A stretch of 36,877 bases of DNA, taken from a virus (Duplodnaviria > Caudoviricetes). Below are positions 1-16,548 of this stretch, one piece after another. The stretch is taken from IMG/VR virus record IMGVR_UViG_3300010362_000056, positions 1-36,877 of that record; one strand, written 5' to 3'. The translations under genes and the position numbers were made by a program. The notes under the pieces were generated by a model that saw nothing but the letters and a program-made list of their open reading frames with translations, was not told the DNA's origin and did not search any database. Numbering within the stretch: position 1 is the stretch's first letter; each line of letters starts with the position of its first letter.

Positions 1-335
1 CGAGCCGGAGAAATTCAGAAGACCCGCAGTCTGTAAGCGTGCCGTCACCGAGTAGAGGCCCGAGACCTAAGAGCGAGCCGACGCCGTCGAAGCGAAGAAG
101 CCCCGTGAGAAGGAAGCGAGCCGCCGAAGCTTAGAGACCCGAACCAGCGAAGCGAGCCGTGCAAAGACCCGTCACGCTGGAGCGAGCCGGACATGGCGAG
201 AGACACGTTGGAGTCCAGCGAGCCGACACGTCCAAGAGTCCCGAAAGGAGATAGCGAGCCGTCGTGGCGTAGAGAACCGACCGAAGTGCAAGCGTGCCGT
301 AACAGGCAAGAGACCCACGGAGCCAAAGCGAACCA
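1..335 (+). ncRNA. TIGR-like dual-repeat guide array 1 (about 9 units, truncated by the window start)
   Basis: AGCG(A/T)GCCG and AGAGACCCG-like 9-10 nt repeats alternate with mostly 9-nt variable spacers, giving a 36-nt period. Example: AGCGAGCCG 115-123, CCGAAGCTT, AGAGACCCG 133-141, AACCAGCGA, AGCGAGCCG 151-159. Confidence 0.85.
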
Positions 336-356
336 ACAACGACGAGGAGAAATCCC

Positions 357-1109
357 ATGGCCGAGATCAACCGTAAGGTCCTCGACATCAGTCACCACAA
401 CAACGTCACATCGTGGGAGCAGGTCAAAGCCGCCGGGATTGTCGGCATCATTCACAAGGCGACCGAGGGCACGAGCTACACCGACAATCAGTATCTGCCG
501 CGCGCGAAGCAGGCGCTCAATGCCGGGCTGTTGTGGGGCGCCTATCACTTCGCCAACAACAGCGACGTCGAGGCTCAGGTCAACCAGTTTCTCCGTGTCG
601 TCGGCATCGACAACGAGACGCTCTATGCGCTCGACTGGGAGGATGAGCCGAACGGCAAGACCATGTCGCGCGATCAGGCGAAGCGCTTCCTGCAATTGCT
701 CGAAGAGCGCACCGGCCGCAAGGGCGTGGTCTATTCCGGCAACCGGGCGAAGGAAGCGCTCGGCAAGGATCACGACGAGTACTTCGGCGCGCACAGGCTT
801 TGGCTCGCGCAGTACGGCTCGACGCCGCAGGCACAAGTCTCGTGGGATGAAATCTGGCTCTGGCAATATTCCGATGGTCAGGTCGGCCCACAGCCGCGCG
901 GTTGCCCGGGCGTGACGGGCTACGTCGATACGAACTCGTGGGACTTTTCCGACGACGACTTGCGCGCGCAATGGTCGGGCTGCGACGAGGCCCCGGCGCC
1001 TGGACCGACGCCCGAGACCGCAGTCGTCAGCATGCGGCTCACGTCGGATCGCCCGGTGACGGTCAAGATCGAGACCGGCCTCGGCGTGCAAATCGAGTAC
1101 CAGCCGTAG
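357..1109 (+). CDS. GH25 family muramidase (endolysin-like)
   Basis: Motifs DISHHN, KATEG, GAYHF, LDWE, LWLAQY, LWQYSD and VDTN are typical of glycoside hydrolase family 25. GAGGAG RBS upstream. Confidence 0.9.
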   Translation: MAEINRKVLDISHHNNVTSWEQVKAAGIVGIIHKATEGTSYTDNQYLPRAKQALNAGLLWGAYHFANNSDVEAQVNQFLRVVGIDNETLYALDWEDEPNGKTMSRDQAKRFLQLLEERTGRKGVVYSGNRAKEALGKDHDEYFGAHRLWLAQYGSTPQAQVSWDEIWLWQYSDGQVGPQPRGCPGVTGYVDTNSWDFSDDDLRAQWSGCDEAPAPGPTPETAVVSMRLTSDRPVTVKIETGLGVQIEYQP

Positions 1110-1111
1110 CC

Positions 1112-1438
1112 ATGAAGCAGTACCAAGGCACGCGCATCGAGGGCGGCAAGTGCGTCGTCGAGGTGATCGGGTGCGACAGCCGCCGGAAGCTCAACCCGCG
1201 GCTCGACCTGTCCAATCATTCGCCCACGGGCTTCGAGTGGGGCTATGGCGGCTCAGGCCCGGCACAGCTCGCGCTCGCATTGCTCGCCGATGTGATGGGC
1301 GACGACGACGCTGCGCTGCGCATGCATCAGCACTTCAAGTTCATGATCGTGAGCAGGCTGCCGCGCGAACGCTGGCATCTGAGCGAGCGTGATATCCGCG
1401 ATTTCATCGACGACCACTTCACGGGCGGTCTGAAATGA
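1112..1438 (+). CDS. Conserved hypothetical protein (DUF6166-like)
   Basis: HSPTGFEWGYGGSGPAQLALALL motif. The ATG lies just after the muramidase stop codon. Confidence 0.7.
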   Translation: MKQYQGTRIEGGKCVVEVIGCDSRRKLNPRLDLSNHSPTGFEWGYGGSGPAQLALALLADVMGDDDAALRMHQHFKFMIVSRLPRERWHLSERDIRDFIDDHFTGGLK

Positions 1439-1695
1439 AGAACGAACGAGTCGAACGGCATATCGACCAGATGAATACGTTCGGCAACATGGTCAAAGCC
1501 TCGATCGGCGTCAGCGTCGAAGCGTGCCTCGACGTCGGCGAGGAGCAAGGCGTGCCCGATCATTTGATGCGCTCGGCAGTTGCTGCCGAAGGTCTGCTGC
1601 TCGCGGCCAAGATGGTCGCGCACAAGAATCATCCCGAGAGCTTCATGCGCATGGCGCGCGCGGCGTTCGAGGCCGCCACTAAGAAAGGCACATGA
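1435..1695 (+). CDS. Hypothetical protein
   Basis: ATGA overlap with the upstream gene and GC3-rich codon usage. Confidence 0.65.
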   Translation: MKNERVERHIDQMNTFGNMVKASIGVSVEACLDVGEEQGVPDHLMRSAVAAEGLLLAAKMVAHKNHPESFMRMARAAFEAATKKGT

Positions 1696-1859
1696 TCAAA
1701 ACGTGGGTCCTGATCATCCTCATCGGCGGGCAGAGTCAGCCGATCGTTGTGCCCGACTACGGGGCCAGCGCCGAATGTGAGCAAGCCCGCGCCATCATGG
1801 AGCGGTGGTCGAGAAACGCCCGCGCTGTCTGCATCCCCGGCCCGGTGCGGCCGAATTGA
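1692..1859 (+). CDS. Small protein with hydrophobic N-terminus and two Cys (55 aa)
   Basis: Read manually as MIKTWVLIILIGGQSQPIVVPDYGASAECEQARAIMERWSRNARAVCIPGPVRPN. ATGA overlap and AAAGG RBS. Too short for the ORF track. Confidence 0.55.
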   Translation: MIKTWVLIILIGGQSQPIVVPDYGASAECEQARAIMERWSRNARAVCIPGPVRPN

Positions 1860-1869
1860 GGAGGACGAG

Positions 1870-2016
1870 GTGAAGCAAGACGAAGCCGACGCCATGCATG
1901 CGGAGCTGCAGGAGCTGAAAGGCCGCCTGCACGAGCTGCAGGAGGCGCTCGCCGAGCTGCGATCGACACCGCAGCCATCGGCGCCGAAGAATTCGAAGCA
2001 GCCCAAAGTGAAGTGA
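1870..2016 (+). CDS. Small coiled-coil protein
   Basis: GTG start after GAGGAGG. Heptad pattern ELQELKGRLHELQEALAEL. Confidence 0.5.
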   Translation: MKQDEADAMHAELQELKGRLHELQEALAELRSTPQPSAPKNSKQPKVK

Positions 2017-2031
2017 AGGAGTGCTCGTGTA

Positions 2032-2508
2032 ATGCGTACCATCGTGAGTGCTATCGTGCTCTTCCTGATTGCCATCACGCCTGCCGTCGCCAAGTCGAGC
2101 AAGGCGCAAGTCGCAGGCAATTGCCTCTCGCAACGCGAGGCGCGCTCGGCCTGGAGCGAGGCCTATCTCAAGTATCGCGTGGTCGACGGCCGCCGGTGCT
2201 GGTATGCGCCGGGCAAGACCATGATCGCCAAGCGAAAGAAGCCTGTCCCGGTGCGGATCGCGTCCCGCCTGCCGATCCCGGTGCAAGTCTCCGAGCCGGT
2301 AGCCGAGCGAGTCATCACCCAGGAGCCCGACAATCTCGACCGCGTGCATCAAGCGCTCTGCGGCGGACCATGCCCGCGCTTCGATCTCGATGACCCGGTG
2401 TATCAGGCGCTCTGCGGCAAACCATGCCCCGACTTCCACGCCATCTATCGCATCGAGAATGCCTTCGATGCCTTCGGACACGTCACCATCGGACGCCGCA
2501 CGTGGTGA
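2032..2508 (+). CDS. Secreted/periplasmic Cys-rich protein
   Basis: Signal-peptide-like start MRTIVSAIVLFLIAITPAVA. AAGGAG RBS. Duplicated QALCGxPCPxF motif. Confidence 0.7.
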   Translation: MRTIVSAIVLFLIAITPAVAKSSKAQVAGNCLSQREARSAWSEAYLKYRVVDGRRCWYAPGKTMIAKRKKPVPVRIASRLPIPVQVSEPVAERVITQEPDNLDRVHQALCGGPCPRFDLDDPVYQALCGKPCPDFHAIYRIENAFDAFGHVTIGRRTW

Positions 2509-2706
2509 GGCCTGCGGTGTTCTGTCTCAAGTGAAGGAATATGCATATGCCTGCAAAACCCGCGGACATAGTACCCACTCAAGTAGCGGCGCTCTCGGCC
2601 AATGGGCGAGCGCGCGTCTATGGCGCTGGAATTCGTGTGGAATGGCGGGCCTTTCCGTCGACTCTTCGACACTTGCAATCGTCACAAATCGGTCGTCTAG
2701 TGTAGG

Positions 2707-2733
2707 ATCAAAACCACGCCAAGGGGTTTTGAT
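2707..2733. promoter_or_regulatory. Inverted repeat, candidate operator
   Basis: ATCAAAACC-N9-GGTTTTGAT, ending about 35 nt upstream of the HTH gene at 2769. Confidence 0.4.
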
Positions 2734-2768
2734 TCGGCAACGACGACGCATGTGCGGGATGCGTCCTA

Positions 2769-3197
2769 ATGGCCACAAAAAAGAACAGGACCATCGGTTC
2801 ACGTATCGCTGAGCTTGTCCATCGTCGAGGCCTCACCGTCATCGACTTCGCAGGCCGCCTTGGCGTGAGCCGATCGCAGACTCACAACTATCTCAGCGGC
2901 TACAGCGAGGTCTCAGCCGACCGGCTCAAGCAGATTGCGGCCGTGCTGGAGTGCAAGCCCGAGCACCTGCTGCAGCCGCCGGGCTCGCGCATCCCGCGAC
3001 GCATCCCGCACAAGCCGCCCCTGGTCCCGCCCAGCAGCGGCACCTCGCTCGTCCCGCCAAGCACGGCAACTTTCGTCAATGCCTTCGAGGTGGCGCGAGC
3101 GCACATCAGCGATCCCAGGTTTCGGAAAATCATCCGCGACTACATCGATGGGTTGCAGCGGGTTGCAAAAACCAAGAGCGAGGCACCGCAATGCTAA
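2769..3197 (+). CDS. XRE-family HTH transcriptional regulator
   Basis: IGSRIAELVHRRGLTVIDFAGRLGVSRSQTHNYLSG...LKQIAAVLEC fits an HTH_3/Cro-C1 pattern. Confidence 0.8.
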   Translation: MATKKNRTIGSRIAELVHRRGLTVIDFAGRLGVSRSQTHNYLSGYSEVSADRLKQIAAVLECKPEHLLQPPGSRIPRRIPHKPPLVPPSSGTSLVPPSTATFVNAFEVARAHISDPRFRKIIRDYIDGLQRVAKTKSEAPQC

Positions 3198-3490
3198 CGC
3201 TCATGCTGCTTCGGCCTCATCATGCAGAGGTCAACCATCGCCTGGGTCGCGACCTTGCACGCGTCAAAGCCGATCAAGCTCGCAAGCCGCCAGAACTCCA
3301 CGACGCCGATCCGCCGCTCGCCGCTTTCGACCCGCGCAAGCCATTGTTGCGAAAGGCCGATCACACGGCAAACATCCTGCTGGCGCAAGCCGCGAGCTTG
3401 CCGCTCGCGCTTCAAGGCCTCTCCCAGGCTCTTATCTCCGCGCTTGCCTTCCCCACGGAAGACAGTCCCCCGACGCGATTTCCTGGGCAT
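3194..3490 (-). CDS. XRE-family HTH regulator (repressor candidate)
   Basis: LGEALKRERQARGLRQQDVCRVIGLSQQWLARVESGERRI is a classic XRE HTH. Confidence 0.85.
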   Translation of the reverse strand: MPRKSRRGTVFRGEGKRGDKSLGEALKRERQARGLRQQDVCRVIGLSQQWLARVESGERRIGVVEFWRLASLIGFDACKVATQAMVDLCMMRPKQHER

Positions 3491-3591
3491 TGCTCGCTCT
3501 GTACGTTTATAACATACCGAATTAAGTCATTAGCTTTAGCGACGGACTTTATTCATTTTGCGCATAGCAGGCAAGACCGGGGCACAGCAGC
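3491..3591. promoter_or_regulatory. AT-rich divergent promoter region (possible genetic switch)
   Basis: AT-rich intergenic stretch (TTTATAAC, AATTAAG, TTTATTCATTTT) between the leftward HTH gene and the rightward operon. Confidence 0.5.
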
Positions 3592-3840
3592 ATGACTGCC
3601 AACCCCGAGCACGTCGACGCCCTGGTCGACGAGATAAAGCCGATCCTTGCAGGGCATGCGCCCAATCTCGTGGGCGCCGTTCTTGCCGACCTGCTCGCGA
3701 TCTTTATGGCCGGACTCCATCCCGCCCTGCGCGAGGAAATCCTGGAGATGCACATCAAGTCGGTGCGCGGGCTCATCCCGATCAACGAAGCCCGCATGCG
3801 CGAAGAAGGTCGATACCCACCAGACTGGAGACCGCAATGA
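3592..3840 (+). CDS. Hypothetical protein
   Basis: GC3-rich ORF overlapping the next gene by ATGA. Confidence 0.65.
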   Translation: MTANPEHVDALVDEIKPILAGHAPNLVGAVLADLLAIFMAGLHPALREEILEMHIKSVRGLIPINEARMREEGRYPPDWRPQ

Positions 3841-4196
3841 AAGGCGAGCTGCTCACCCTCAAGCCCGACGGCACCCGCGACAAGCAACCGCTCACCGGCG
3901 AGCCCGGGCTCGACCTGCTGCACGACATTGTCGGCGGCTACATCGAGGTCGTTCCCTACTTCTCGACCATCGAGATCGACGGCGTCGTCCACAATTGCAT
4001 CGCTTTCTGCAACGAGGAGGGCAAGTTCGCACGACCCGAGCCACTGCCGCTCAACGCGCGCGCCACCGACGCGTGGGACAGCTCGATGCGCCGCGCAGGC
4101 ATCCCGACCGGCGCGATGCCTGATCACCTCGTCGGAAATATCGCCGTGATAATCGGCGACGAAGTTCTGCAGGCCATGCGAACCGACAGCGATTGA
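3837..4196 (+). CDS. DUF3846-like protein
   Basis: LHDIVGGYIEVV...FCNEEGK...LPLNARAT...LVGNIAVI pattern. GGAG RBS. Confidence 0.75.
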   Translation: MKGELLTLKPDGTRDKQPLTGEPGLDLLHDIVGGYIEVVPYFSTIEIDGVVHNCIAFCNEEGKFARPEPLPLNARATDAWDSSMRRAGIPTGAMPDHLVGNIAVIIGDEVLQAMRTDSD

Positions 4197-4227
4197 AAAA
4201 CAAAACCGCTGAAGTGAAGGGGACACT

Positions 4228-4902
4228 ATGAAGCTAGCGAAGCACCACCGCGAGATCACAGACGAATTAGCACGCTACGGAATCAAGCCGGACATCGAGC
4301 CCAACGGCCGCGGCCACGTGCTCATGCACTGGCGCGTGCACGGTCATCATCAAAGCATCACGGTCGCGAAAACACCGAGCGACTGGCGCGCACAACGCAA
4401 CAACATCGCGAAGGTGCGCCGCCTCCTGCGCAACGCAGGCGTCGACACCACTGCCGAGCAAACCGTGAGCGTGCCGCTCTGCAGCCTGTCACCACAGCAG
4501 CGGCAAACCATCTTGCTCGAAGACCGCATCACGCAGCTTGAACGCGACGTCGCCATGCTGCTCGACCGCCTCACCGCTCCGGAGCTGCCAGCACCAGCAC
4601 TGGCGATCGAGCCGCCACCGCCGCCCGCACCGATCGAGGAGCCGCCACCGCCCAGGCGGCACCGCGGGCGCCCGCGGGCAGACCTGTCATGGCTGTGGCG
4701 CGTCATGCGCTACGATGCTTTTCGGCCGTACGACGCCATCGCCAAGGATGCTGGCCGCAGGGTCGGCTATGTGAGCACGGTGCTCATCCGACTGAAAAAG
4801 CGCGGGCTGGTCGAGCATCGGTACCGCGAAGGCTGGCGCAAGCATCGCAGCGTCGAGCGCACCAACGGCCACGCCAACGGGCACGCGGAGGCGCGGCCAT
4901 GA
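4228..4902 (+). CDS. Protein with HicA-like N-terminal fold, Pro-rich linker and putative C-terminal wHTH
   Basis: N-terminus GRGHVLM...ITVAKTPSDWRAQRNNIAKVRR. PPPPP linker. C-terminus IAKDAGRRVGYVSTVLIRLKKRGLV. Confidence 0.55.
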   Translation: MKLAKHHREITDELARYGIKPDIEPNGRGHVLMHWRVHGHHQSITVAKTPSDWRAQRNNIAKVRRLLRNAGVDTTAEQTVSVPLCSLSPQQRQTILLEDRITQLERDVAMLLDRLTAPELPAPALAIEPPPPPAPIEEPPPPRRHRGRPRADLSWLWRVMRYDAFRPYDAIAKDAGRRVGYVSTVLIRLKKRGLVEHRYREGWRKHRSVERTNGHANGHAEARP

Positions 4903-5102
4903 GCGTCGGCGAGATCAATTCAGGCAGCACGGAATTCGCCAAGCTTGCCGAGGGCATCTGTCCCGACTGCGGTCATCGCGGCTTCGTGCTCGGGCCACGC
5001 GGCGGAGCCAGCATCAACGTCGAGTGTGGGAATCGTGTGTGCGCAGCACGATTCAGTCTTGCCACGTTCGGATGGGAGTTGATGGCCGCGCAACGAATCT
5101 AA
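4899..5102 (+). CDS. Small zinc-ribbon protein
   Basis: CPDCG...ECGNRVC motif and ATGA overlap. Confidence 0.65.
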   Translation: MSVGEINSGSTEFAKLAEGICPDCGHRGFVLGPRGGASINVECGNRVCAARFSLATFGWELMAAQRI

Positions 5103-5557
5103 AGTGCCGTGAACGAGAAGAGCCCCTGAATACGATAGCGAGCCGCGCTACCGCAGAGACCCGAACCAGCGAAGCGAGCCGATGAACGAGAGAGACCCGC
5201 AACTCGGAAGCGAGCCGAATCTAAAATAGAGACCCGACGTGTAATAGCGACACTGAGACCCGCCGCGCCGGAAGCGTGAGAGAACCGAGACCATAAGCGA
5301 GCCGCGAAAATGAAGAGCACCGTCGACACCAAGCGAGCCGCGTGACCCGAGAGACCCGAAGCAGGCGAGCGAGCCTGGAAGTTGAAGAGACCCGTGGAAG
5401 TTTAGCGAGCCGAGCGAAGACAGAGCACCGCGGGACTCTAGCGAGCCGAGCCTAAGGAAGCGAACCGCGACAATGAAGCGAGCCGAGAGGCGCAAGAGAC
5501 CCGAAACGGCCCAGCGAGCCGAAATTGGAAAGAGACCCGTGAAAACCTAGCGACCCA
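5101..5557 (+). ncRNA. TIGR-like dual-repeat guide array 2 (about 11 intact plus 2 degenerate units), upstream of the tas gene
   Basis: AGCGAGCCG at 5137, 5173 and 5209 and AGAGACCCG at 5155 and 5191 give an exact 36-nt period with 9-nt spacers. Ends at AGCGACCCA 5549-5557. Confidence 0.88.
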
Positions 5558-5573
5558 GGAAGGGGAGAGTGAC

Positions 5574-6554
5574 ATGCCTTACGAACCAAGGATTCGATCG
5601 CTGAGAGTAATGGTGAAATCCGCCTATGCCCTCCAAAAACTTAGAATCCAAACAGGCTTACGCCTTTGCGCAAACCTGCGCGCCAAGCTCAAGGATGAGG
5701 CGCCGACCGAAACGCTGGTCGATGCCGATGCCGAGGATCTCAGCGCCGACGCCAAGAAGCTCATCAAGGACTTGTACGCTGCATATCGGCGGCTCACCGA
5801 CGGCGTGGCGAAGCGGCGCACGTTGCCTGCCGAGCGCGGCTTTCAAGGCGAGGGCGTGATCTCCGACTTCGCCGAGCTGGTGATCGCGCACAGTTACTTC
5901 GAGCTTGAACGTCAGGAGCGCGAGCAATTCCGCCTCATGGGCGAGGTGCTCGATACGATCCCGGTCTACAAGCACTGGCTCGGCAAGCAAGTCGGCATCG
6001 GCCCGGCCATGGCGGGCGTGCTGGTCACGTACTTCGATATCAACAAGGCGAGCTATCCGTCGCAGTTCTGGGCGTTCGCCGGGCTCGACGTCGGCCCGCC
6101 CATCAACGGCGTGCACCTCGCACGATCGCGGCGCAAGGAGCACCTCGTCGAGCGCTCGTATGTCGATCGCAACGGCGAGACCAAGACCAAGATGTCAACG
6201 ACGTTCGATCCGTGGCTTCAATCGAAGCTCATGGGCGCACTGGCGGTGTCGTTGATCAGGCTCAACTCGCCGTACCGGAGCTACTACGACTACTATCGGC
6301 ACCGGATCGAGAGCGACCCGAACCGCATGAAGGGCACGCTCAAGGACAAGAAGAAGCTGAGAGACGCAGGCGAGAGCGGCGAGAACCTGTGGCATCCCCT
6401 GCGAATTCACCGCGCGAGCCTGCGATACATGGTCAAACAGTTTTTGGCCGACTTCTGGCGGCAGTGGCGCGAGATCGAGAAGTTGCCGACGCGTCCTAGA
6501 TACCAAGAACAGTATCTTGGCCACCGCCACCACGGTCAGGCGGCGGCCGAGTAA
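5574..6554 (+). CDS. tasA: TasA-like Nop-domain / IS110-related RNA-binding protein lacking a nuclease domain
   Basis: IS110/Nop-like coiled coil (LRVMVKSAYALQKLRIQTGLRL), HhH-like VGIGPAMAGVL...SQFWAFAGL, and C-terminal RIHRASLRYMVKQFLADFW. No N-terminal DEDD/RuvC or HNH. Directly flanked on both sides by 36-nt dual-repeat arrays. Confidence 0.8.
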   Translation: MPYEPRIRSLRVMVKSAYALQKLRIQTGLRLCANLRAKLKDEAPTETLVDADAEDLSADAKKLIKDLYAAYRRLTDGVAKRRTLPAERGFQGEGVISDFAELVIAHSYFELERQEREQFRLMGEVLDTIPVYKHWLGKQVGIGPAMAGVLVTYFDINKASYPSQFWAFAGLDVGPPINGVHLARSRRKEHLVERSYVDRNGETKTKMSTTFDPWLQSKLMGALAVSLIRLNSPYRSYYDYYRHRIESDPNRMKGTLKDKKKLRDAGESGENLWHPLRIHRASLRYMVKQFLADFWRQWREIEKLPTRPRYQEQYLGHRHHGQAAAE

Positions 6555-6555
6555 A

Positions 6556-7068
6556 AGCGAGCCGGGATGCCGCAGAGACCCGAGATATTCCAGCGAGCCG
6601 CTCGGCATTAGAGCCCCGTAGAGTCGCAGCGAGCCGCATGAAGTCAGAGACCCGAACCGGAGTAGCGAGCCGTACACCACGAGAGCCCCGGAACCGATAA
6701 GCGAGCCGCGCGAAGTTAGAGACCCGAGCGGTAGAAGCGAGCCGACCCAGCGCAAGAGACCCGAGGTGGTAGAGCGAGCCGCGATGCAACAGAGACCCGA
6801 GGGGGAACAGCGAGCCGACATCGAAAAGGTGACCCGCAAAGCAGCTAGCGAGCCGAGGCGCCGCAGAGACCCGTTGTAGTAGAGCGTGCCGCCCAAAGTA
6901 AGAGAAACCGGAAGTGGACAGCGAGCCGACCTCGCACAGAAGACCCGGGAAGACGAAGCGAGCCGCGTTCGAGAAGAGACCCGTGCCGCACGAGCGAGCC
7001 TGGACCCGTGAGAGCCCCGTAACGAAATAGCGAGCCGATAACCGCGAGAGAACCGATGGATTACAGCG
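6556..7068 (+). ncRNA. TIGR-like dual-repeat guide array 3 (14 units), downstream of the tas gene
   Basis: Starts 2 nt after the TAA: AGCGAGCCG-GGATGCCGC-AGAGACCCG-AGATATTCC-AGCGAGCCG. Runs through to ATGGATTAC-AGCG, just before the ATG at 7070. Confidence 0.9.
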
Positions 7069-7069
7069 T

Positions 7070-8691: not shown

Positions 8692-9211
8692 GTTGAGCCG
8701 CGCTTTGGAAGCAGACCCGTTGGAGTAGAGCGAGCCGTTCCCGAGAAGAGACCCGGGCCGCAAGAGCGAGCCGAGGCCGCCGAGAGACCCGTTGGAGTAG
8801 AGCGAGCCGTTGTTGCGAAGAGACCCGCGAAAGATTAGCGAGCCGTGATTTGCAGCGACCCGAAAAAGGAAAGCGAGCCGGGGATCGGCAGTGACCCGTT
8901 TCCTGCGAGCGAGCCGTGAGAGCGGAGAGACCCGAAAGGCCTCAAGCGAGCCGTTGCCGATGAAGTGCAGATGATCCGAAGTGGCCAAGCGAGCCGAGTG
9001 CCCGGAGAGAACCAGAGCCTGCTAGCGAGCCGTATCTGTAGAGAGACCCGTGACGCTCAAGCGCTGCCGTAACGCGTTAGAAGAACCGCGTGGTCTAAGC
9101 GAGCCGCGATAATCGAGAGACCCGTCGTCGAGGAGCGAAAGCCGTGACTGTCAAGAGCACCGTAACCGTGTAGCGAGCCGAGCGGTAGAAGAGACCCGAG
9201 ATGAGTTAGCG
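8692..9211 (+). ncRNA. TIGR-like dual-repeat guide array 4 (14 units), no adjacent tas gene
   Basis: Same two repeats and 9-nt spacers. Begins right after the TGA ending at 8691 and ends with AGCG immediately before the ATG at 9212. Confidence 0.88.
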
Positions 9212-9684: not shown

Positions 9685-9881
9685 ATCGAATCGTGAATGA
9701 GCGCGAAGCCGCCGAGGCGAGCATCCTGCTCGCTGAGTGGCATGCGAAGTGCGGGCACGAGGCCGAGCGGAAGAACCGCAAGATGGCGAGCCGCTATCAC
9801 TTCAAGCTGGCGCGGATGCTCAACGAGGATGCGAAGCCGCGCGGCGAGGTCTGCCGGTTTCCAAAGCGGGGAGCACGATGA
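9681..9881 (+). CDS. Hypothetical protein
   Basis: ATGA-coupled, GGAGGAG RBS. Confidence 0.6.
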   Translation: MNRIVNEREAAEASILLAEWHAKCGHEAERKNRKMASRYHFKLARMLNEDAKPRGEVCRFPKRGAR

Positions 9882-10069
9882 TGATGACTGAATACGAACA
9901 CTGGGAAAGGCGCGCGCGTGCTGGTGACGGTCAATTCGCGATCGCGTGCGGCTTGTTTCTGCTAGCGCGCGCAGTCGAAGGATTGGGCGTAGGCAACACC
10001 TCGACCAACGGCGCGATCGCACGGCTTTGCAATTCCCTGGATGACATCGCGCATGCGTGCCGAAAATGA
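9878..10069 (+). CDS. Hypothetical protein
   Basis: ATGA-coupled, GGGGAG RBS. Confidence 0.5.
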   Translation: MMMTEYEHWERRARAGDGQFAIACGLFLLARAVEGLGVGNTSTNGAIARLCNSLDDIAHACRK

Positions 10070-10557
10070 GTGAGAAAGAGTTGCGTGCGTTGATCGACTT
10101 GTCGTCGAAGGCGATTGGCGACCTGTTCTACAAGGATGGTCACATCATTCCGATGTGGCACGCCATTGACGACAAGGGCCGTGAGCACCTGTTGCCGTCG
10201 ACATTGCAGGACAAGGACACCACGGTCGCTTTTGTCCGCGCGCTGTTCGAGATCATGCACGTCAAGCGCTACGTGTTCATCGACGAGGCGTGGATGCTCA
10301 GCACGCAGATGCCGCAGGAGGCCGAGGTCAAGGAAATCCACAAGCGCGGCATTGCCAACCATCCGGAGCGGATCGAGATCGTCCTGTTTTCCGGCGAGGA
10401 TTCCGAGTGGGGCCAGCTCATGGCACACCGCAGGATCGAGCGCCCGCCGGGCAAGCGCGCCTATCTCGGTCCGCTGCAATTCCCCGACGGCGGCAAGCTC
10501 ATGAGGGCGGAAGGCCGTATGGTCGGCCTGCTGCCTGCACAAGGGGCGAAGCAATGA
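10066..10557 (+). CDS. Hypothetical phage protein
   Basis: ATGA-coupled ORF starting MSEKELRAL, with strong codon bias. Confidence 0.7.
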   Translation: MSEKELRALIDLSSKAIGDLFYKDGHIIPMWHAIDDKGREHLLPSTLQDKDTTVAFVRALFEIMHVKRYVFIDEAWMLSTQMPQEAEVKEIHKRGIANHPERIEIVLFSGEDSEWGQLMAHRRIERPPGKRAYLGPLQFPDGGKLMRAEGRMVGLLPAQGAKQ

Positions 10558-10784
10558 CGCGCCTGCAGACCAACATGGGCGAGAAGCCCGACGACCGCGA
10601 TGACGATGCCGATGCCTATACGATCCCGGAGTTCTGCCGTCGGCATCGCATCTCGGAATCGTTTTACTACAAGCTCAAGGCCCGCGATCTCGGCCCGCGG
10701 ACCATGGCGGTCGGCACCAAGGTGCTCATCAGCAAAGAAGCCGCCGCTGAGTGGCGGCGGCATCGAGAGCAGAGCGGGAAGTAG
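10554..10784 (+). CDS. xis: Excisionase / AlpA-like wHTH recombination directionality factor
   Basis: YTIPEFCRRHRISESFYYKLKARDLGPRTMAVGTKVLISKEAAAEW, located next to the integrase. Confidence 0.7.
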   Translation: MTRLQTNMGEKPDDRDDDADAYTIPEFCRRHRISESFYYKLKARDLGPRTMAVGTKVLISKEAAAEWRRHREQSGK

Positions 10785-10786
10785 GG

Positions 10787-10963
10787 CTATGAACCCCACC
10801 TCTGCCAAGGGACCAGCGCGAGTGGCCACAGGAAGAGTACGAGCAGTGCGCCGCTCCACTTGCCACCCGGGAGATCGCGATACGACAGCGCGGCGAGCAC
10901 GGCCCCGACGAGGAGCCATGCGACCCCCGCCCAGGTTACGATGGTGATGATGGTGTCGAGCAT
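10787..10963 (-). CDS. Small two-TM membrane protein
   Basis: MLDTIITIVTWAGVAWLLVGAVLAAL...GALLVLFLWPLALVPW. Starts 2 nt after the integrase stop. Confidence 0.55.
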   Translation of the reverse strand: MLDTIITIVTWAGVAWLLVGAVLAALSYRDLPGGKWSGALLVLFLWPLALVPWQRWGS

Positions 10964-10964
10964 G

Positions 10965-12212
10965 TCACGCCGCGAATGGCACGATGTTGTTCGGGTTGGT
11001 ATCGAGCAGCCCGAGCCGCGCGACCCGATCGCCCTGCTTGGCAGCCGCCTCCGCGATCCAGCGCGCATAGTGGGTCTCGATTTCCTTGACGCTGGTGTCG
11101 TGGTTCTTCGCGACCAGCAGAACGGGCGTGCCTGCCAAGATCGCGCGCACGATCGAGGAGTGGCGCAACGCGTAGAGCGTGATGGTCGCGGGATCGAGCC
11201 CGGCCGCCTCGACGACGGTGCGGAAGGCCCGCCGGTGCGCATCGTTCTTGCGGCTATGGCCCCAGGCCTCGCCCTTGCCGTTGAGCAGCAGGGGCGCGTC
11301 GGCGATCCGGCCTCGTGCGCCAGCCTTGAGCGCTGCTGCGAGCGCGGGCGAGATCGGCACCGGGACGCGCTCGGTGTTCTTCTCGCCGCGGTTCTTGTGC
11401 CCGCCCTTGTCAGAGCGCGGCATCATCAATTGTGCCGATCCATCCAACAAGTCCTCGACGACCAGCCGCGCAAACTGCGATTGCCGTGCGCCGGTCTGCG
11501 CGGCCGTCTCGACCATGAGCCCGAAGGCGCGATCATGCTCATAGGCGAGATATACGATCCGGCGCACGGTCGCGTCGTCGAGCACCATCTTGCGGGCGCG
11601 GTTGGCGCCGGGGATCGGCTTCAATCCGATCTCCCACGGCTGCCGACTGCTGATGCCATTCGACTCGTCATCGGCTGCCAGCGTGAGTGCTGCACGCATG
11701 CAGCTCATTGTGCGGTTGGCGCTCGCCGGTGCCATCTTGGCGACGAGCGTGGCGCGCCACTGCTTCCAGTCCTTGACCGCGGTGAGGCGGACCGCCTTGG
11801 TGAGCAGCGCGGCCGGGAGGTAGCTCCCGGCGCGATCGGCGTTGTAGGGGTCGCCGTTGCGCGTGATCAGGTCGTCCTTGTAGGCGTCGAGCGCGTCACC
11901 GACCGTGATCGGCCGGGTCTCGACCGTCTCGCCCGAGCCGGTGCGCACGAGAGCGCGCGCGGTGTCGATCGCCTGCCAGTACGTGAGCACGGTCTTGCCG
12001 TCGGCCTGCTCAAGGTCATCGGCGATCGCGATGCGTTTGATCCACTGCGCGCCTTGCGCGGTCGAGCGCACGCTCCACGTGCCTGCACCATCGTTGCGCC
12101 GATAGCCGAGCGCGATGCCCGGGCTAATCACTTTCCAGTACGGCCGCTTCGCTACCGGCAATTTCAATCGCGCGGTCGCAGTCTCCAATTTGAAGTCTCT
12201 CACTTTCGGCAT
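10965..12212 (-). CDS. int: Tyrosine recombinase / phage integrase
   Basis: N-terminal arm-binding-like region (LGYRR...GTWSVR). Catalytic R in TGARQS, YALRH, NHDT, and Y in ETHYA. Confidence 0.92.
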   Translation of the reverse strand: MPKVRDFKLETATARLKLPVAKRPYWKVISPGIALGYRRNDGAGTWSVRSTAQGAQWIKRIAIADDLEQADGKTVLTYWQAIDTARALVRTGSGETVETRPITVGDALDAYKDDLITRNGDPYNADRAGSYLPAALLTKAVRLTAVKDWKQWRATLVAKMAPASANRTMSCMRAALTLAADDESNGISSRQPWEIGLKPIPGANRARKMVLDDATVRRIVYLAYEHDRAFGLMVETAAQTGARQSQFARLVVEDLLDGSAQLMMPRSDKGGHKNRGEKNTERVPVPISPALAAALKAGARGRIADAPLLLNGKGEAWGHSRKNDAHRRAFRTVVEAAGLDPATITLYALRHSSIVRAILAGTPVLLVAKNHDTSVKEIETHYARWIAEAAAKQGDRVARLGLLDTNPNNIVPFAA

Positions 12213-12242
12213 AGTCCAGTCGGTCCCTTCAGTATCAAGCGA

Positions 12243-12489
12243 GTGTCAAAACCCGCGGTGTGGAGCGGTGTGCTCCTCTAAGGAGTGATATGAAGAGAAA
12301 TGCCCATAAACTCAAGGCTTTTCATTGCGCGCGGACTTCGACTTTGGATCATGTTGCGCGATCAAAACATCAAAAGTTGCCCTATCGCGGCGCCTGACCG
12401 CGGGCGGCCAGAGGCGGAAAATGATGATAGAACAGTACCTTAGTCGAAAGCGGCCGGGGCCGGTGTCAACAGGGTGTCAAAAACCGCGG
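12243..12489. repeat. Direct repeats, candidate integrase arm sites (attP region)
   Basis: GTGTCAAAACCCGCGG (12243-12258), GTGTCAAC (12463-12470) and GTGTCAAAAACCGCGG (12474-12489) flank a relatively AT-rich non-coding stretch upstream of int. Confidence 0.5.
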
Positions 12490-12540
12490 CGGGAACCCTT
12501 GCATGGCCGATATGCAAGGGGCATGATCCTGGGGCGGCAG

Positions 12541-12609
12541 GGCCGAGGCCTCCAAGTGCTCCGATCGTAGGCAGCCCTGCCGCCATTGGTAAGAGACCCG
12601 AAAGCAGAC
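12541..12609 (+). repeat. Two degenerate TIGR-like units
   Basis: GGCCG-AGGCCTCCA-AGTGCTCCG-ATCGTAGGC-AGCCCTGCCG-CCATTGGTA-AGAGACCCG-AAAGCAGAC. The 9-nt spacing is kept. Confidence 0.55.
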
Positions 12610-12689
12610 CCAAGGGCGGGCGGGCCGGTTGTCCATTTCCGGTTCCGTCCGCCTGATCTTTGCGCCGGGCTTGAACGTGACACCTGCCC

Positions 12690-12766
12690 GGTGAGCCGAC
12701 AGAGACCAGTAGACCCGTGCCTCGCCAGCGAGCCGAAGATAATAAGAGACCCGTGACGAGCCAGCG
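12690..12766 (+). ncRNA. TIGR-like mini-array (2 units)
   Basis: GAGCCG-ACAGAGACC-AGTAGACCCG-TGCCTCGCC-AGCGAGCCG-AAGATAATA-AGAGACCCG-TGACGAGCC-AGCG. Confidence 0.75.
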
Positions 12767-12776
12767 AGATCGCCTG

Positions 12777-12935
12777 ATGTTTGAAGTGCCTGCCGTGAGC
12801 CGATTGCGCGCCGTGTTGATCGGCGTGCTCTCGGCCACGGCGCTCATCACACTCGCGGTGATATACGCAGCCGCGTTCGGACCATTCACGCCGGTGTCGA
12901 GCGGGTGCTGCCTTGTCACTACCCAAGCTCCTTGA
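12777..12935 (+). CDS. Possible small membrane protein
   Basis: Single hydrophobic helix AVLIGVLSATALITLAVIYAAAF. No clear RBS. Confidence 0.35.
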   Translation: MFEVPAVSRLRAVLIGVLSATALITLAVIYAAAFGPFTPVSSGCCLVTTQAP

Positions 12936-13065
12936 GTGGCTTCTGTCTGCCGCACTTATTGCGATCCTAATCGTGGTGACGATCGGGGTCACTCAAGTCT
13001 ACTTAGAGGGTAGCGGGTTCAAGACTTGGCTAGCGGATAACGATCATTGCCCCTCGTGGGTCTGC

Positions 13066-13101
13066 AGCGAGCCGATTGGAAACAAGTGAACCGCAAGACC
13101 T
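13066..13101 (+). repeat. Solo degenerate TIGR-like unit
   Basis: AGCGAGCCG-ATTGGAAAC-AAGTGAACCG-CAAGACCT, followed by the ATG at 13102. Confidence 0.45.
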
Positions 13102-13839
13102 ATGCCGACAGAGCTTAATGCCCTTGATCGTTCGGTGGATGACTGGACCGTTGCGAGCTTGCGCGATGCGTTCTTTGCCCATGGCTGCGCGATCGTGCGC
13201 GGCGCCGTTGACGTCGAATATCTGGCTCGGCTGGCGGTGTCCGTTGATCGGGCGTATCAGCGGACATCCGAGGCGCACGTCAATGAAGGGGAGATTGTCG
13301 CAGCGGGCTTCGGCGTCTCGGGATTTGAAATTGGCGACCAGCCGTTGCTGCGCGGGCTCTTGGATGCAGTGTTTCGTGGCCGCGAGAACTATCAGCCCGC
13401 CTATGTGGCAGCGCGGCGCGTGCATGGTCAGAAGAAGGACGAGAGCTTTCAGCCGCCGTTGGACCTGCATGTCGACGCGCAATATCACGGCCCGCGTTTC
13501 GTCGTGAATTTCTGGCTCCCGTTGCAGGCATGCGGCGTCGACCGGCCGACGATTCTGCTGGTGCCAGTCGATCGGCATCGCACGCGAGCGCATGTCGGGT
13601 TTACGGGCGAGCGGCTGCGGCAGGGCGGCGACTGGTATCTCGATTGGTTCGATTTGGACACGATGACGGTTGATCGCGTGCGCGATGCGTTCGGTGATGA
13701 TTGCTTTCTGCATCCGGTGATGGCGCGCGGCGATGTCGTGATCGCCTCAAGTTGGATCATTCACGGATCGTGGTGGACCAAAGCAATGACCCGGGGCAGG
13801 AAGAGTGTCGAGGTGCGCTACATCGGCGACGTGACGTGA
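13102..13839 (+). CDS. PhyH-like Fe(II)/2-oxoglutarate dioxygenase
   Basis: HxD (LHVDA), VNFWLPL, GDVVI...IIHGS, and distal R (RKSVEVRY). Confidence 0.8.
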   Translation: MPTELNALDRSVDDWTVASLRDAFFAHGCAIVRGAVDVEYLARLAVSVDRAYQRTSEAHVNEGEIVAAGFGVSGFEIGDQPLLRGLLDAVFRGRENYQPAYVAARRVHGQKKDESFQPPLDLHVDAQYHGPRFVVNFWLPLQACGVDRPTILLVPVDRHRTRAHVGFTGERLRQGGDWYLDWFDLDTMTVDRVRDAFGDDCFLHPVMARGDVVIASSWIIHGSWWTKAMTRGRKSVEVRYIGDVT

Positions 13840-14023
13840 GTCGTCAAAAAGCATCTTTGAAAAATATTTTTTGTGCGTTTGCTTAGGCAAACGTGCGCCA
13901 AAGCACCGCTAACCCATTGATCGTCGCAACATCACCAGCAGTGTAAGCCGCTTTGTGCGATAATAGTCCTGTCGGTGGCGGTGGTCGCCACCGGCAGGCT
14001 GTTTGACAAAGTGGAGAAGTAGA

Positions 14024-14275
14024 ATGCCTGCGAATGATACTCGCGTTCGCGCGAGCGAAGCAATCCCCATGCCTGCGCGGAAGCGATTGCTCAACACCGG
14101 TCAGCCCATCAAGGCCAGCGAGCTGGTCCAGCGCCGACACGTTGAGGCGCAGAAGGCGATGGAGCGGGCGATTGCGCGGCGCGAGGATTTGCTCCTCAAG
14201 GTCGCACGATTGCAGACGAAAATCTGGACGCTCGGTCGGCAGGTGCAGCGCTACGCGAAGAAGATCGGCGAGTAA
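14024..14275 (+). CDS. Basic coiled-coil hypothetical protein
   Basis: GGAG RBS upstream. Ends at a terminator hairpin. Confidence 0.5.
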   Translation: MPANDTRVRASEAIPMPARKRLLNTGQPIKASELVQRRHVEAQKAMERAIARREDLLLKVARLQTKIWTLGRQVQRYAKKIGE

Positions 14276-14304
14276 AAAAAGGCCCGGACGCGAGTCCGGG
14301 CCTT
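14274..14304 (-). terminator. Rho-independent terminator, likely ending the leftward structural operon (possibly bidirectional)
   Basis: Perfect stem GGCCCGGAC-GCGA-GTCCGGGCC preceded by A7 (a U-tract on the - strand), between convergent genes. Confidence 0.8.
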
Positions 14305-14425
14305 AGTCGTTCCTGGGGGAGGTTAAAGGAAAATGACCCGGCGGAGGGTGAGAGCCGCCGGGCCGAGGGAAGGTAGGTTCACTATGCACCGCTGGTTGCC
14401 CCGAGGGGATCGGGACAGAGCTTAT

Positions 14426-14854
14426 CTAAGGCTCTTCCGGCACGATCGCAACGGGCGCGCTCGGATCGGCTTGGTTCGGGTCTTGCAAGTGACGCAGATG
14501 TGTCCACGGCTCATCGGGCGCGATGCCATGCTCCGCGCGATAGGCGAAGAACACCGCGTTGCTGTGCAGGTCGTGATACTGGCAGTCGTAACTCTCCCGG
14601 CCGCAGATGAGACAGATGCGCGGGTTCGAGCTGTTCGCCCGATTGCGATCGGAGATACGCGCACGCGCTTCGAGTTCGTCGACGCTCATGTCCTTCTGCT
14701 CAGGCCAAGACGGATTTTGAAACGGCCAATAGAAGCGGTCGGGATCGAAGTTGGGATAGAGCTTCGTTTCCCCGAGCGCGGCGACCTTGGGATAATCACC
14801 GGGCACCAACTCGGGATCGGGCACTACCGGTTCGATATCGGTCTTCTCGTCCAT
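14426..14854 (-). CDS. Hypothetical protein (tail-distal)
   Basis: ORF in the structural operon with a CLICG...C motif. Confidence 0.6.
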   Translation of the reverse strand: MDEKTDIEPVVPDPELVPGDYPKVAALGETKLYPNFDPDRFYWPFQNPSWPEQKDMSVDELEARARISDRNRANSSNPRICLICGRESYDCQYHDLHSNAVFFAYRAEHGIAPDEPWTHLRHLQDPNQADPSAPVAIVPEEP

Positions 14855-14857
14855 GAA

Positions 14858-15148
14858 TCACACTCCCGAAGCGGCGGGCGGCTCGACCGTGTACTCGTCC
14901 GCATTGAGCGCGTGCGTCTCGCCACTGCCACTCGCGGGCGCCGAGCTGCTGCCACTTTGCTGCGCGGCCTCGGGCGCGGCGAGCCAGCGGATCGCGCCGG
15001 GCGGCGTCGCAATGCCCTGCGACGTCTGGAAGTCCGCCCACTCGGTGTCGGTGTGGGAGCAGGGCGGAAGGTTTGCCGGATCGCTCCATATCTGACCGCA
15101 GTACGCGCATTTGAACGGCGGGCCGTCGAGCACAGATGTACCGGTCAT
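14858..15148 (-). CDS. Hypothetical protein (tail-distal)
   Basis: GAGG RBS and CAYCG...CSH motif. Confidence 0.6.
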   Translation of the reverse strand: MTGTSVLDGPPFKCAYCGQIWSDPANLPPCSHTDTEWADFQTSQGIATPPGAIRWLAAPEAAQQSGSSSAPASGSGETHALNADEYTVEPPAASGV

Positions 15149-15155
15149 GATGTCC

Positions 15156-16445
15156 TCACGTGTAGATCATTGAGTTGTTGTTGCCGACCTCGTTGAGAGT
15201 CGGCGGCGAGATCACACCGCTCGCCCCGCCGTTCAAGACCGCGCCGTTGACGCGGCACGAGGCGCCACCGCGGATATAGACCGAACCTTCGACGTTGCCT
15301 TGGAATGTGGCGAAGTCCGCCCAGCAGAAGCCGCCATCCATTTGCAGGCCCCAACCTTGGTTGAAGCGGCAGTAGGCGCCGCGCATATCGAGCGTCGAGG
15401 CGCCCGCGACGAAGATGCCACCGACATTGTTGCTATCAATCTGGCTGCCCACACCGCTGATGACGAATTGCGTGCCCTGATTCACGTGCAGCGCTCGGTT
15501 GGTCGGCGGCGGGTTATGGCCGCGGCAATCGACAAGCCAGACATGGACCAAGGTGCCCCATGTGTTCCAACCGCAAATGCCGTTACTACAAGTAATCCAC
15601 CACTGGTTGCCCGAATCCCACACACGGCCGCCGGTGACGACAATCCCAAAATTGTTGCAGAAGCACACCACGATCGAGAGCGAGGTCTGCGACAGAAGCT
15701 GGCACGAGTTGATGTTGATCCCGATGTGGCCCATGCCCCAAACGGCAACGCCATCAACCCACACATCGCCAAAGGCATCGATTCCGACTTGGTTGCCGGT
15801 CTGGCTGCCGGTGAGCAGCAGATAGCGCAGCGTCACGCCGTCACGATAGGTGATGAAGCCCGAGCTGCCGCCGGTGAAGATAAGCTCGGTCGCATACACC
15901 GAGCGCAGGTAGATGATTTGATTGGTGCCGTCGGTCGGCGAGTGAAAGCCCGTCACCGAGATGTTGGGCGGCAACGGCGACGCGCCCTTCAGCGCCGCGC
16001 CCTGGACCGCAATGCGGTTGGCGTTCGCGTGGTTGACCTCGATCGGCTCGACGTAGGTCCATTGCCCGCCCGCCACCAAGAACGTCACATATCCCGACGG
16101 CGTGATGACGTAGCGCGCAACCCACTCCATCGCGTCGATAAGATTGGGGAAATCCGCACCTGGTCCGTGCACGCTCTTGAAGATGTGCGTGGTGATGAAA
16201 CGCTGCGCAAACAAAATCTGCAGCGCTTTCCAGAGCTGTTCGAGATCGTCATGCGAGGGCGTTTGCGCCATGCCCTCGTCGGCGCCCGCCTTCATGATGA
16301 CGGTGAGTATCTCGATTTGCACTTCGTCGAACGCGCGCGCAGGCGGGATCGACCCGGCGGTGCCAGTAACCGGATTGCCGTTAATATATCTCGGGAAGGT
16401 GCCAAGTGGCGGCTCGGGGGTACCAAACGGTTGGTTATACCGCAC
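15156..16445 (-). CDS. Tail fibre/tailspike with probable parallel beta-helix
   Basis: Mu-like fibre N-terminus (YINGNPVTGTAGSIPPA...QIEIL...QLWKAL) followed by Gly/Asn-rich beta-strand repeats. Follows the baseplate genes. GGAG RBS with GTG start. Confidence 0.75.
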   Translation of the reverse strand: MRYNQPFGTPEPPLGTFPRYINGNPVTGTAGSIPPARAFDEVQIEILTVIMKAGADEGMAQTPSHDDLEQLWKALQILFAQRFITTHIFKSVHGPGADFPNLIDAMEWVARYVITPSGYVTFLVAGGQWTYVEPIEVNHANANRIAVQGAALKGASPLPPNISVTGFHSPTDGTNQIIYLRSVYATELIFTGGSSGFITYRDGVTLRYLLLTGSQTGNQVGIDAFGDVWVDGVAVWGMGHIGININSCQLLSQTSLSIVVCFCNNFGIVVTGGRVWDSGNQWWITCSNGICGWNTWGTLVHVWLVDCRGHNPPPTNRALHVNQGTQFVISGVGSQIDSNNVGGIFVAGASTLDMRGAYCRFNQGWGLQMDGGFCWADFATFQGNVEGSVYIRGGASCRVNGAVLNGGASGVISPPTLNEVGNNNSMIYT

Positions 16446-16495
16446 GTGACTACTCCACTGCTTTCGGGTTAGGCTTGAGGCGAGCGCGCACGACG

Positions 16496-16531
16496 TGCCG
16501 GTGCGATACAGAGACCCGGGTTGATTGAGCG
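16496..16531 (+). repeat. Solo 36-nt TIGR-like unit, antisense to the tail operon
   Basis: TGCCG-GTGCGATAC-AGAGACCCG-GGTTGATTG-AGCG in the intergenic gap 16446-16548. Confidence 0.65.
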
Positions 16532-16548
16532 GTGCGCGCTCTCACTCG

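What the first reader, a model, noticed from the sequence alone, without database searches (positions are those of the whole stretch)
1..16531. One effector, many scattered arrays: about 50 guide units at 7-8 loci across 16 kb
Seen in sequence: the same repeat pair forms large arrays at 1-335, 5101-5557, 6556-7068 and 8692-9211, plus small clusters at 12541-12609, 12690-12766, 13066-13101 and 16496-16531. All are on the + strand and essentially intergenic, and only one tas-like gene is in the window. Inference: orphan arrays supply guides in trans from different transcripts, possibly at different infection stages. The units seem able to seed new loci, which bears on how such spacers are acquired. 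No Cas1/Cas2-like or reverse transcriptase gene is visible here.
Basis: partly seen in the sequence, partly recalled or inferred. Interest (0 to 1): 0.8.

Follow-up and report, generated by a model that had tools for sequence, protein, structure and literature searches.

The report
Scattered phage guides, one TasA effector
A soil phage spreads about 52 two-part guide units of the known TIGR-Tas type over four arrays and several lone sites around a single nuclease-free tasA gene, and one lone unit matches the start of the gene beside it except at silent positions, which suggests the guides likely silence rival phages' versions of neighbouring genes.

Summary
Confirmed. There are 48 dual-repeat TIGR units in four arrays and 4-6 outlying units, all on the + strand, with one nuclease-free tasA (5574-6554). 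Two outliers are weak on motif alone. The contig starts inside array 1, so a second tas to the left is not excluded. Dispersal is common in this clade: 8 of 15 related whole phage records have units >10 kb from their only tas, including three complete genomes.

(1) Two lone units sit inside perfect 10-11-bp hairpins.
(2) The lone antisense unit at 16496 matches the first 17 bases of the adjacent tail-fibre gene, with three mismatches, all silent. Clade-wide, 11 of 1465 guides have such a recoded match within 400 bp (permutation mean 0.6-0.7), six in tas itself.
(3) Half-spacers are shared between distant arrays.

Best reading: one TasA likely loads all guides and represses kin phages, with some guides linked to the phage's own immune allele. 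Expression is untested, and the other guides in this window have no target found. This scan noted solo units, recoded neighbours and half-shuffling before on other DNA. The logic resembles viral mini-CRISPR arrays.

The parts
3..330 (+). TIGR dual-repeat array 1: 8 full units plus one with a shortened spacer A; cut by the contig end; followed by a GH25 endolysin gene (357-1109)
   Evidence: endolysin
5105..5552 (+). Array 2: 12 units, directly upstream of tasA
5574..6554 (+). tasA, 326 aa, Nop-domain protein with no nuclease domain; Y310/H317 align with the SpTasH Y289/H296 processing dyad
   Evidence: phmmer TasH E 7e-12, TasR E 2e-6; model pLDDT 86, helical N-terminus; top 10 Foldseek hits TasH/TasR; Y310 invariant in 58 homologues
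6560..7068 (+). Array 3: 14 units, directly downstream of tasA, ending 1 nt before the next ATG
8696..9211 (+). Array 4: 14 units, 2.1 kb from tasA, between a stop codon (8691) and an ATG (9212)
12533..12584 (+). Lone unit enclosed flush by a perfect 11-bp inverted repeat (stem-loop-like form); a degenerate unit follows at 12578-12615
12694..12766 (+). Two-unit mini-array next to the integrase gene region
13066..13106 (+). Probable degenerate unit (full edge repeat, last box reads TG), weak on motif score
16482..16541 (+). Lone unit (16496-16531) inside a perfect 10-bp inverted repeat, antisense in the junction between the baseplate wedge gene and the tail-fibre gene
   Evidence: genes
16429..16445 (-). 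First 17 nt of the tail-fibre gene: silent-only (3 mismatches) cognate of the 16496 guide when the two halves overlap by one base
10965..12212 (-). Tyrosine integrase: context, marks the phage as likely temperate

Best explanation
The phage carries one nuclease-free TasA gene and about 52 two-spacer TIGR units at seven or eight gene junctions; the one TasA likely cuts out and loads 36-nt guides from all of them and would bind, without cutting, matching DNA of related co-infecting phages to block transcription, while the phage's own copy of a targeted gene likely escapes because it differs at silent positions. Shown: the units, the single tas, the hairpins and the silent-only match at 16429-16445. 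Inferred from published TIGR work: processing by the Y/H dyad, loading in trans, repression. Inferred here: the guides target kin phages, and at least some outlying units sit where they do because a guide against a gene is inherited together with the immune allele of that gene. Also inferred: units are copied between loci and re-paired half by half, with no Cas1/Cas2-like module.
For: Family identity. One tas-family locus in each of 13 records searched with the broad phrog_4285 model. 10 of 15 whole related records have units >2 kb from tas, 8 of 15 >10 kb, 6 of 15 on the opposite strand. 12 of 18 distal arrays start within 90 nt of an upstream same-strand ORF end. All loci in the window keep one repeat consensus. 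Silent-only near-matches to the phage's own coding DNA: 11 of 1465 guides within 400 bp and none at 400-1500 bp; control geometries give 0, 0 and 1; two permutation nulls give mean 0.67 and 0.60, max 3 in 30 rounds each. One such guide (L034) matches the tas gene of two other contigs (L036, L044) 18/18 while missing its own by 6, and its homologue in L046 differs at three wobble positions. Identical half-spacers within a record: 27 B-B and 13 A-A among 33,534 pairs, against about 0.5 each expected; at least 11 of 42 sharing pairs span separate loci. TasA represses transcription when guided (10.64898/2026.09.09.750476).
Against: Only 1 of the window's units has any cognate. None of 53 window guides has a site with <=1 mismatch (18-bp rule) in 2.8 Mb of related phage DNA, and counts equal the control geometries. 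The 17-bp rule also gives no excess. None of 15 related tail-fibre starts matches the 16496 guide exactly (3-8 mismatches). A control geometry also produced one exact 18-mer hit. Near-identical guide pairs show no general codon-phase signal, and guides show no peptide-level enrichment for tas. Local cognates are 0.75% of guides, so linkage cannot explain the long distal arrays by itself. Five of 15 whole records and the complete cultured phage RSL1 (one 37-unit array) show no dispersal. L110 has a second divergent tas-like ORF, so some 'orphans' can have their own effector. The DNA left of position 1 is unread.
Confidence: 0.6

Rival explanations
1. Autoregulation: the guides tune the phage's own genes through mismatched binding (for example, 16496 dampens its own tail-fibre gene, and tas-matching guides limit tas).
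For: The cognates found lie in the phage's own genome next to the guide, one at a start codon, six in tas. TasA is a repressor.
Against: The test selected silent-only mismatches, and the excess of such matches fits escape from targeting. The L034 guide is perfect for two other contigs and 6 mismatches from its own gene. No exact self-target was found in the window. Seed mismatches block TasR cleavage (PMC12045711).
Confidence: 0.12
2. The distal loci are silent relics, left by module exchange or lost tas genes, and only tas-adjacent arrays work.
For: Several outliers are degenerate. No consensus promoter was found at any of them. L110 has two tas-like genes.
Against: Array 4 keeps the consensus as well as arrays 2-3. 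The 16496 unit is near-perfect with an intact stem and a local cognate. No tas remnant was found near distal arrays in 13 records. Ten stem-enclosed lone units in L083 show different but pairing stem sequences.
Confidence: 0.1
3. A second tas gene lies in the unassembled half of the genome and serves array 1 or other loci, so there is not one effector.
For: The record is about 50% complete and starts inside array 1. A contig of run X1 continues about 1,983 bp to the left.
Against: Three complete relatives with distant units have one tas. The 5.3-kb right-hand extension L251 has no tas and no units. This would not explain array 4 or the lone units.
Confidence: 0.1
4. Most guides silence host chromosomal genes (defence or metabolism), and dispersal gives staged expression.
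For: Most guides have no match in the phage DNA searched. The loci fall in at least three likely transcription units.
Against: The only significant target signal points to phage genes. The host is unknown and no host genome was searched, so this rival is untested rather than refuted.
Confidence: 0.08

Closest known systems
Dual-repeat TIGR-TasA systems (FpTasA; Faure et al. 2025, PMC12045711; Xu et al. 2026, 10.64898/2026.09.09.750476)
   Same: 36-nt units with alternating edge and loop repeats and two 9-nt spacers; solo Nop-domain protein; Y/H dyad; arrays up- and downstream of tas; phage-borne; no adaptation genes.
   Different: Those papers describe arrays around tas: flanks of at most 10 kb were extracted for context, and clusters under four half-units are discarded. 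Here the units occupy 7-8 loci, including lone and antisense ones, and relatives reach 48 kb. Box D reads AG. The last bases of A and B are complementary in 549 of 1436 guides (359 expected), whereas Faure et al. saw no obvious covariation.
Stem-loop TIGR arrays (PlTasA, BlTasA, MbTasA)
   Same: A spacer pair enclosed by a palindromic stem, as at 12533-12584 and 16482-16541; PlTasA has three subarrays about 450 nt apart.
   Different: Published stem-loop systems form separate Tas clades that lack the Y/H dyad and use a CUU motif. Here hairpin units with dual-repeat motifs coexist with dual-repeat arrays and a Y/H-bearing TasA.
Virus-borne mini-CRISPR arrays (Medvedeva et al. 2019, PMC6858448)
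   Same: One- or two-spacer units away from any effector gene, targeting nearby genes of related viruses while the carrier's own locus is mutated.
   Different: Those borrow the host's Cas nuclease and adaptation module. Here the effector is the phage's own non-cutting TasA, the guide is split in two, and no acquisition enzyme is known.
IS110 recombinases with bridge RNA
   Same: Related Nop-domain fold (Foldseek E about 3e-3); PHROG label 'transposase'.
   Different: No DEDD/RuvC domain in the model; arrays of short guides instead of one bridge RNA.

Membership tests
Dual-repeat TIGR-Tas | About 36-nt units with alternating edge and loop repeats and two 9-nt spacers | tested here: met
Dual-repeat TIGR-Tas | Box C / box D anchors; edge gap with complementary end bases | tested here: met
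   CC(G) and AG anchors invariant in 34 strict units; edge gap CGAG pairs, loop gap AGAC does not, fitting the rule read; box D is AG, not UG
Dual-repeat TIGR-Tas | Adjacent Nop-domain Tas protein | tested here: met
Dual-repeat TIGR-Tas | C-terminal Y/H processing dyad | tested here: met
   Y310/H317 align with SpTasH Y289/H296 (residue numbers); sequence alignment only
Dual-repeat TIGR-Tas | Array typically ends in a rho-independent terminator | tested here: not met
   No terminator-like site directly after any of the four arrays; they run into the next gene. A typical feature, not a strict one
Dual-repeat TIGR-Tas | Expression and processing to 36-nt tigRNAs bound by Tas | not testable with these tools
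   needs RNA data or pull-down
TasA subtype | No HNH or RuvC domain | tested here: met
   no Pfam family; residues 1-126 helical in the model
TasA subtype | RNA-guided DNA binding and repression | not testable with these tools
   shown for MbTasA in 10.64898/2026.09.09.750476, not for this protein
Stem-loop TIGR | Palindromic stem round each spacer pair | tested here: inconclusive
   met for 2 lone units only; not for the array units; fold z-scores only -1.0 and -1.5
Stem-loop TIGR | Tas lacks the Y/H loop | tested here: not met
IS110 transposon | N-terminal DEDD recombinase domain | tested here: not met
CRISPR / mini-CRISPR array | Single 25-36-nt repeat with spacers of similar size | tested here: not met
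   two alternating 9-nt repeats; no Rfam match in 1-17400

The most novel reading that the evidence does not exclude
New TIGR guides are born on the spot from the neighbouring gene (spacer A an inverted copy and spacer B a direct copy of adjacent DNA, as at 16429-16531), first as hairpin-enclosed lone units. The phage's own allele is then recoded, giving a linked guide-plus-immunity cassette that acts as an RNA-guided allele drive among co-infecting phages. Such units later grow into arrays and trade halves. This would be the missing acquisition route of TIGR systems and a bridge between the stem-loop and dual-repeat forms.
Probability: 0.25. Interest if true: 0.85.

Novelty: new variant of a known kind. 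Interest (0 to 1): 0.62.

Why it matters
The TIGR papers I read name three open questions: natural targets, how spacers are acquired, and what TasA does in nature. Genome-wide orphan arrays and lone units fall outside the published annotation design, so guide repertoires are likely undercounted. The 16496 unit gives a concrete guide, an own allele and a predicted rival allele that can be tested with one binding or reporter assay. The clade-wide excess of recoded neighbours, the 1-bp overlap signal and the half-spacer sharing constrain any acquisition model.

Tried and rejected
Targets:
- Exact or 1-mismatch self-targets under the 18-bp rule with gaps 0-2: none in the true geometry.
- Window guides against 2.8-3.2 Mb of related phage loci: no excess over controls.
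- General codon-phase test on 53 near-identical guide pairs: no signal.
- Peptide-level test for anti-tas guides: 20 against 23, 14 and 13 in controls, no enrichment.

Array dynamics:
- Simple crossover chimeras with both parents surviving: 0 of 40 half-sharing pairs had both halves shared.
- CRISPR-like polar growth: no gradient of repeat conservation along arrays, and shared units come in permuted order in several of 12 related pairs.

Left flank of the contig: no exact match in viral contigs; L043 does not overlap it. It remains unread.

Expression: no RNA holder listed. The promoter scan was at chance level.

Acquisition genes: no Cas1 in 5 related records. No Cas1, Cas2 or reverse transcriptase family among 46 window proteins scanned with Pfam, which is not every ORF.

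Other searches: the single-sequence tas search of viral contigs found nothing, so an alignment was used. 82 loci found by sheath or capsid held no arrays. G013 and L116 gave no array model and were left out of the dispersal counts; G001 was left out because its tas is too divergent for the tblastn anchor. G006 and G017 were not fetched because they looked redundant. The host was not identified.
Full report
Observation. A weight-matrix scan with flexible spacer lengths resolves four arrays: 3-330 (8 units plus a shortened one), 5105-5552 (12), 6560-7068 (14) and 8696-9211 (14). Outliers lie at 12541-12615, 12694-12766, 13066-13106 and 16496-16531. The units at 12578 and 13070 score within the range that shuffles reach, so the total is 52-54 at 7-8 loci. 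One contig of run X1, possibly the source, spans 1-17400 without a difference. A second sample covers most of the arrays with none. The record is a linear viral contig, an estimated 50% complete, that starts inside array 1. L251 extends it 5.3 kb to the right with terminase-like ORFs (read by eye) and no units.

Context. Tail, capsid and portal genes lie on the - strand. Endolysin, a repressor-like HTH protein and many small genes lie on +, and a tyrosine integrase lies at 10965-12212. This fits a temperate myophage; the listed holders are soil metagenomes. Arrays 2-4 start a few bases after stop codons, and arrays 3 and 4 end at the next ATG, so they are likely co-transcribed with one gene run (inference). 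The 12.5-13.1 kb units lie in a small + strand cluster beside the integrase, and the 16496 unit is antisense in the tail operon.

Effector. ORF 5574-6554 matches TasH (E 7e-12) and TasR (E 2e-6) by sequence. Its model (pLDDT 86) has TasH/TasR as the top 10 Foldseek hits and a purely helical N-terminus. It is therefore a TasA. Y310/H317 align with the SpTasH processing dyad Y289/H296. It is the only tas in the record.

Dispersal in relatives. I fetched 17 of 19 related viral records whole and learned a repeat model per record with shuffle-set thresholds; 15 had both a model and an anchored tas. Ten of 15 have loci more than 2 kb from tas, 8 of 15 more than 10 kb, 6 of 15 on the opposite strand, and 5 of 15 none. 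The broad family model finds one tas locus in each of 13 records searched, including complete G004, G018 and G019, whose distal units lie 19-48 kb away. Twelve of 18 distal arrays begin within 90 nt of an upstream same-strand ORF end. Against this, L110 has a second divergent tas-like ORF, and the complete cultured phage RSL1 has one 37-unit array and no distal locus. Dispersal is thus common in the clade but not universal.

Hairpin-enclosed lone units. Perfect inverted repeats enclose the units at 12533-12584 (11 bp, flush with the boxes) and 16482-16541 (10 bp). Locus L083 has ten such lone units beside ordinary dual-repeat arrays, with differing but pairing stems, placed after stop codons and before ribosome-binding sites (three shuffles gave 0, 0, 1). 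The other 38 records and loci scanned showed this at background level. The baseplate-to-tail-fibre junction that holds the 16496 unit carries no unit in 15 orthologous junctions of 0-599 bp, two of them in TasA phages. These relatives are only 50-75% identical in protein, so gain is inferred, not shown.

Targets. Under the published rule (A on one strand, B on the other, 18 bp) no window guide has a site with at most one mismatch in its own genome or in 2.8 Mb of related phage DNA. Among 1465 guides, one had exact hits: the first unit downstream of tas in L034 matches the tas genes of L036 and L044, and misses its own by 6. Its homologue in L046 differs at three wobble positions. A control geometry also gave one exact hit, so this alone was a lead. 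Earlier scan notes suggested a 1-bp overlap and recoded neighbours, which I then tested. The last bases of A and B are complementary in 549 of 1436 guides against 359 expected (z 11.5; next cell 3.1), and in 17 of 51 in the window. With the overlap, the 16496 guide matches the first 17 nt of the adjacent tail-fibre gene with three mismatches, all silent. It is the only full 9+9 guide with such a hit in 34.9 kb of own genes; controls gave one hit each at 4-5 mismatches. Across 72 non-redundant records, 11 of 1465 guides (10 independent) have a silent-only match within 400 bp and none at 400-1500 bp. The three control geometries give 0, 0 and 1 within 400 bp, and permutations give means of 0.67 and 0.60, maximum 3. 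Six of the 11 lie in tas; 2 of 21 lone units have one against 9 of 1444 array units. Matches farther than 1.5 kb are at background. No related tail-fibre start equals the predicted site (15 starts, 3-8 mismatches). General codon-phase and peptide tests were negative.

Array dynamics. In the window three half-spacers recur exactly (null mean 0.05): B of 119 and 5141, B of 8696 and 8769, and B of 6704 as A of 9176. The last pair shares 14 of 18 target positions when read in mirror orientation. In 73 records (1785 units) there are 27 B-B, 13 A-A, 1 A-B and 1 whole-unit duplicates, against about 0.5 expected per same-class category. At least 11 of the 42 span separate loci, up to 17 kb apart. The partner halves are only slightly closer than random (mean edit distance 4.9 against 5.9), and in 0 of 40 cases are both halves shared. 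Related arrays share units in permuted order, with no polarity in repeat conservation. Distant loci therefore exchange sequence.

Mechanism. Shown: units, single tasA, hairpins, local silent-only cognate, shared halves. Inferred from published work: Y/H-dependent processing and guided repression. Inferred here: loading in trans, kin-phage targeting, and linkage of guide and immune allele as one cause of dispersal. Linkage accounts for under 1% of guides, so the long distal arrays need a further cause, likely copying of units into co-transcribed gene junctions.

Literature seen. PMC12045711: passages, the Discussion in full, and a search of four supplementary files that found none of six terms. 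10.64898/2026.09.09.750476: parts 1-6 of 7 and passages; its supplements and TIGRSafari tables were not seen and may list distal arrays within 10 kb. 10.64898/2026.08.11.744272: part 1 of 5 and passages. PMC13421893 and PMC6858448: passages. These papers describe arrays upstream, downstream, on both sides of or inside tas, and three subarrays 450 nt apart, and call targets and acquisition unknown. Searches for TIGR with orphan, superinfection, spacer acquisition, array expansion, natural targets and synonymous returned nothing or only general TIGR papers and reviews, some seen as listings only. The library lacks most subscription papers. Viral mini-CRISPR arrays that target neighbouring genes of kin viruses are published and are the closest functional precedent.

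Verdict. The genome-wide orphan loci, the mixed hairpin and dual-repeat forms, and guides beside recoded cognates make it a new variant of a known kind. Interest is 0.62, because it makes the target and acquisition questions directly testable, though expression is unshown and only one window guide has a cognate.

Noticed in passing
L083:4955-15320: Ten hairpin-enclosed lone TIGR units, placed after stop codons and before a strong ribosome-binding site, beside normal dual-repeat arrays and one tasA: a gene-by-gene layout of guides.
   Followed up: partly
L034:5552-5587, L046:858-893; also L110, L014, L032, L106: Guides aimed at the tas gene itself. The L034 guide is exact for the tas of L036 and L044 at the codons around the processing tyrosine, and recoded in its own tas.
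   Followed up: partly
L266:13180-15574 (NC_010811.2, phage RSL1): A cultured jumbo phage has a tas homologue annotated 'transposase' followed by an unannotated 37-unit dual-repeat array.
   Followed up: partly
window 12496-12520: Perfect 9-bp inverted repeat with a 7-bp gap just upstream of the hairpin unit, overlapping weak -35/-10-like words seen by eye; may be an operator or att-related site.
   Followed up: no
window 5444-5480, 155-184, 5250-5299: Irregular units: an edge-like repeat in a loop position, and partly deleted spacers, consistent with slippage at the repeats.
   Followed up: no
L110:7636-8600 and G001 between its two arrays: Divergent tas-like ORFs barely detected by the clade profile; L110 carries two tas-like genes about 2 kb apart.
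   Followed up: partly
window 13102-13839: PhyH-like dioxygenase ORF (weak, E 7e-4) in the cargo cluster beside the integrase, directly after the 13066 unit.
   Followed up: no
window 3837-4196 and 7070-7459: Two DUF3846-like ORFs on either side of the tasA locus.
   Followed up: no
L171, L173, L174, L223, L226, L237-L241, L243, L249: Tail-sheath matches in several relatives span about 250 bp more than in the window, suggesting an insertion.
   Followed up: no
G018 and G019 distal three-unit loci: Both complete genomes carry a similar irregular three-unit cluster with the same linker far from tas, but different spacers.
   Followed up: no
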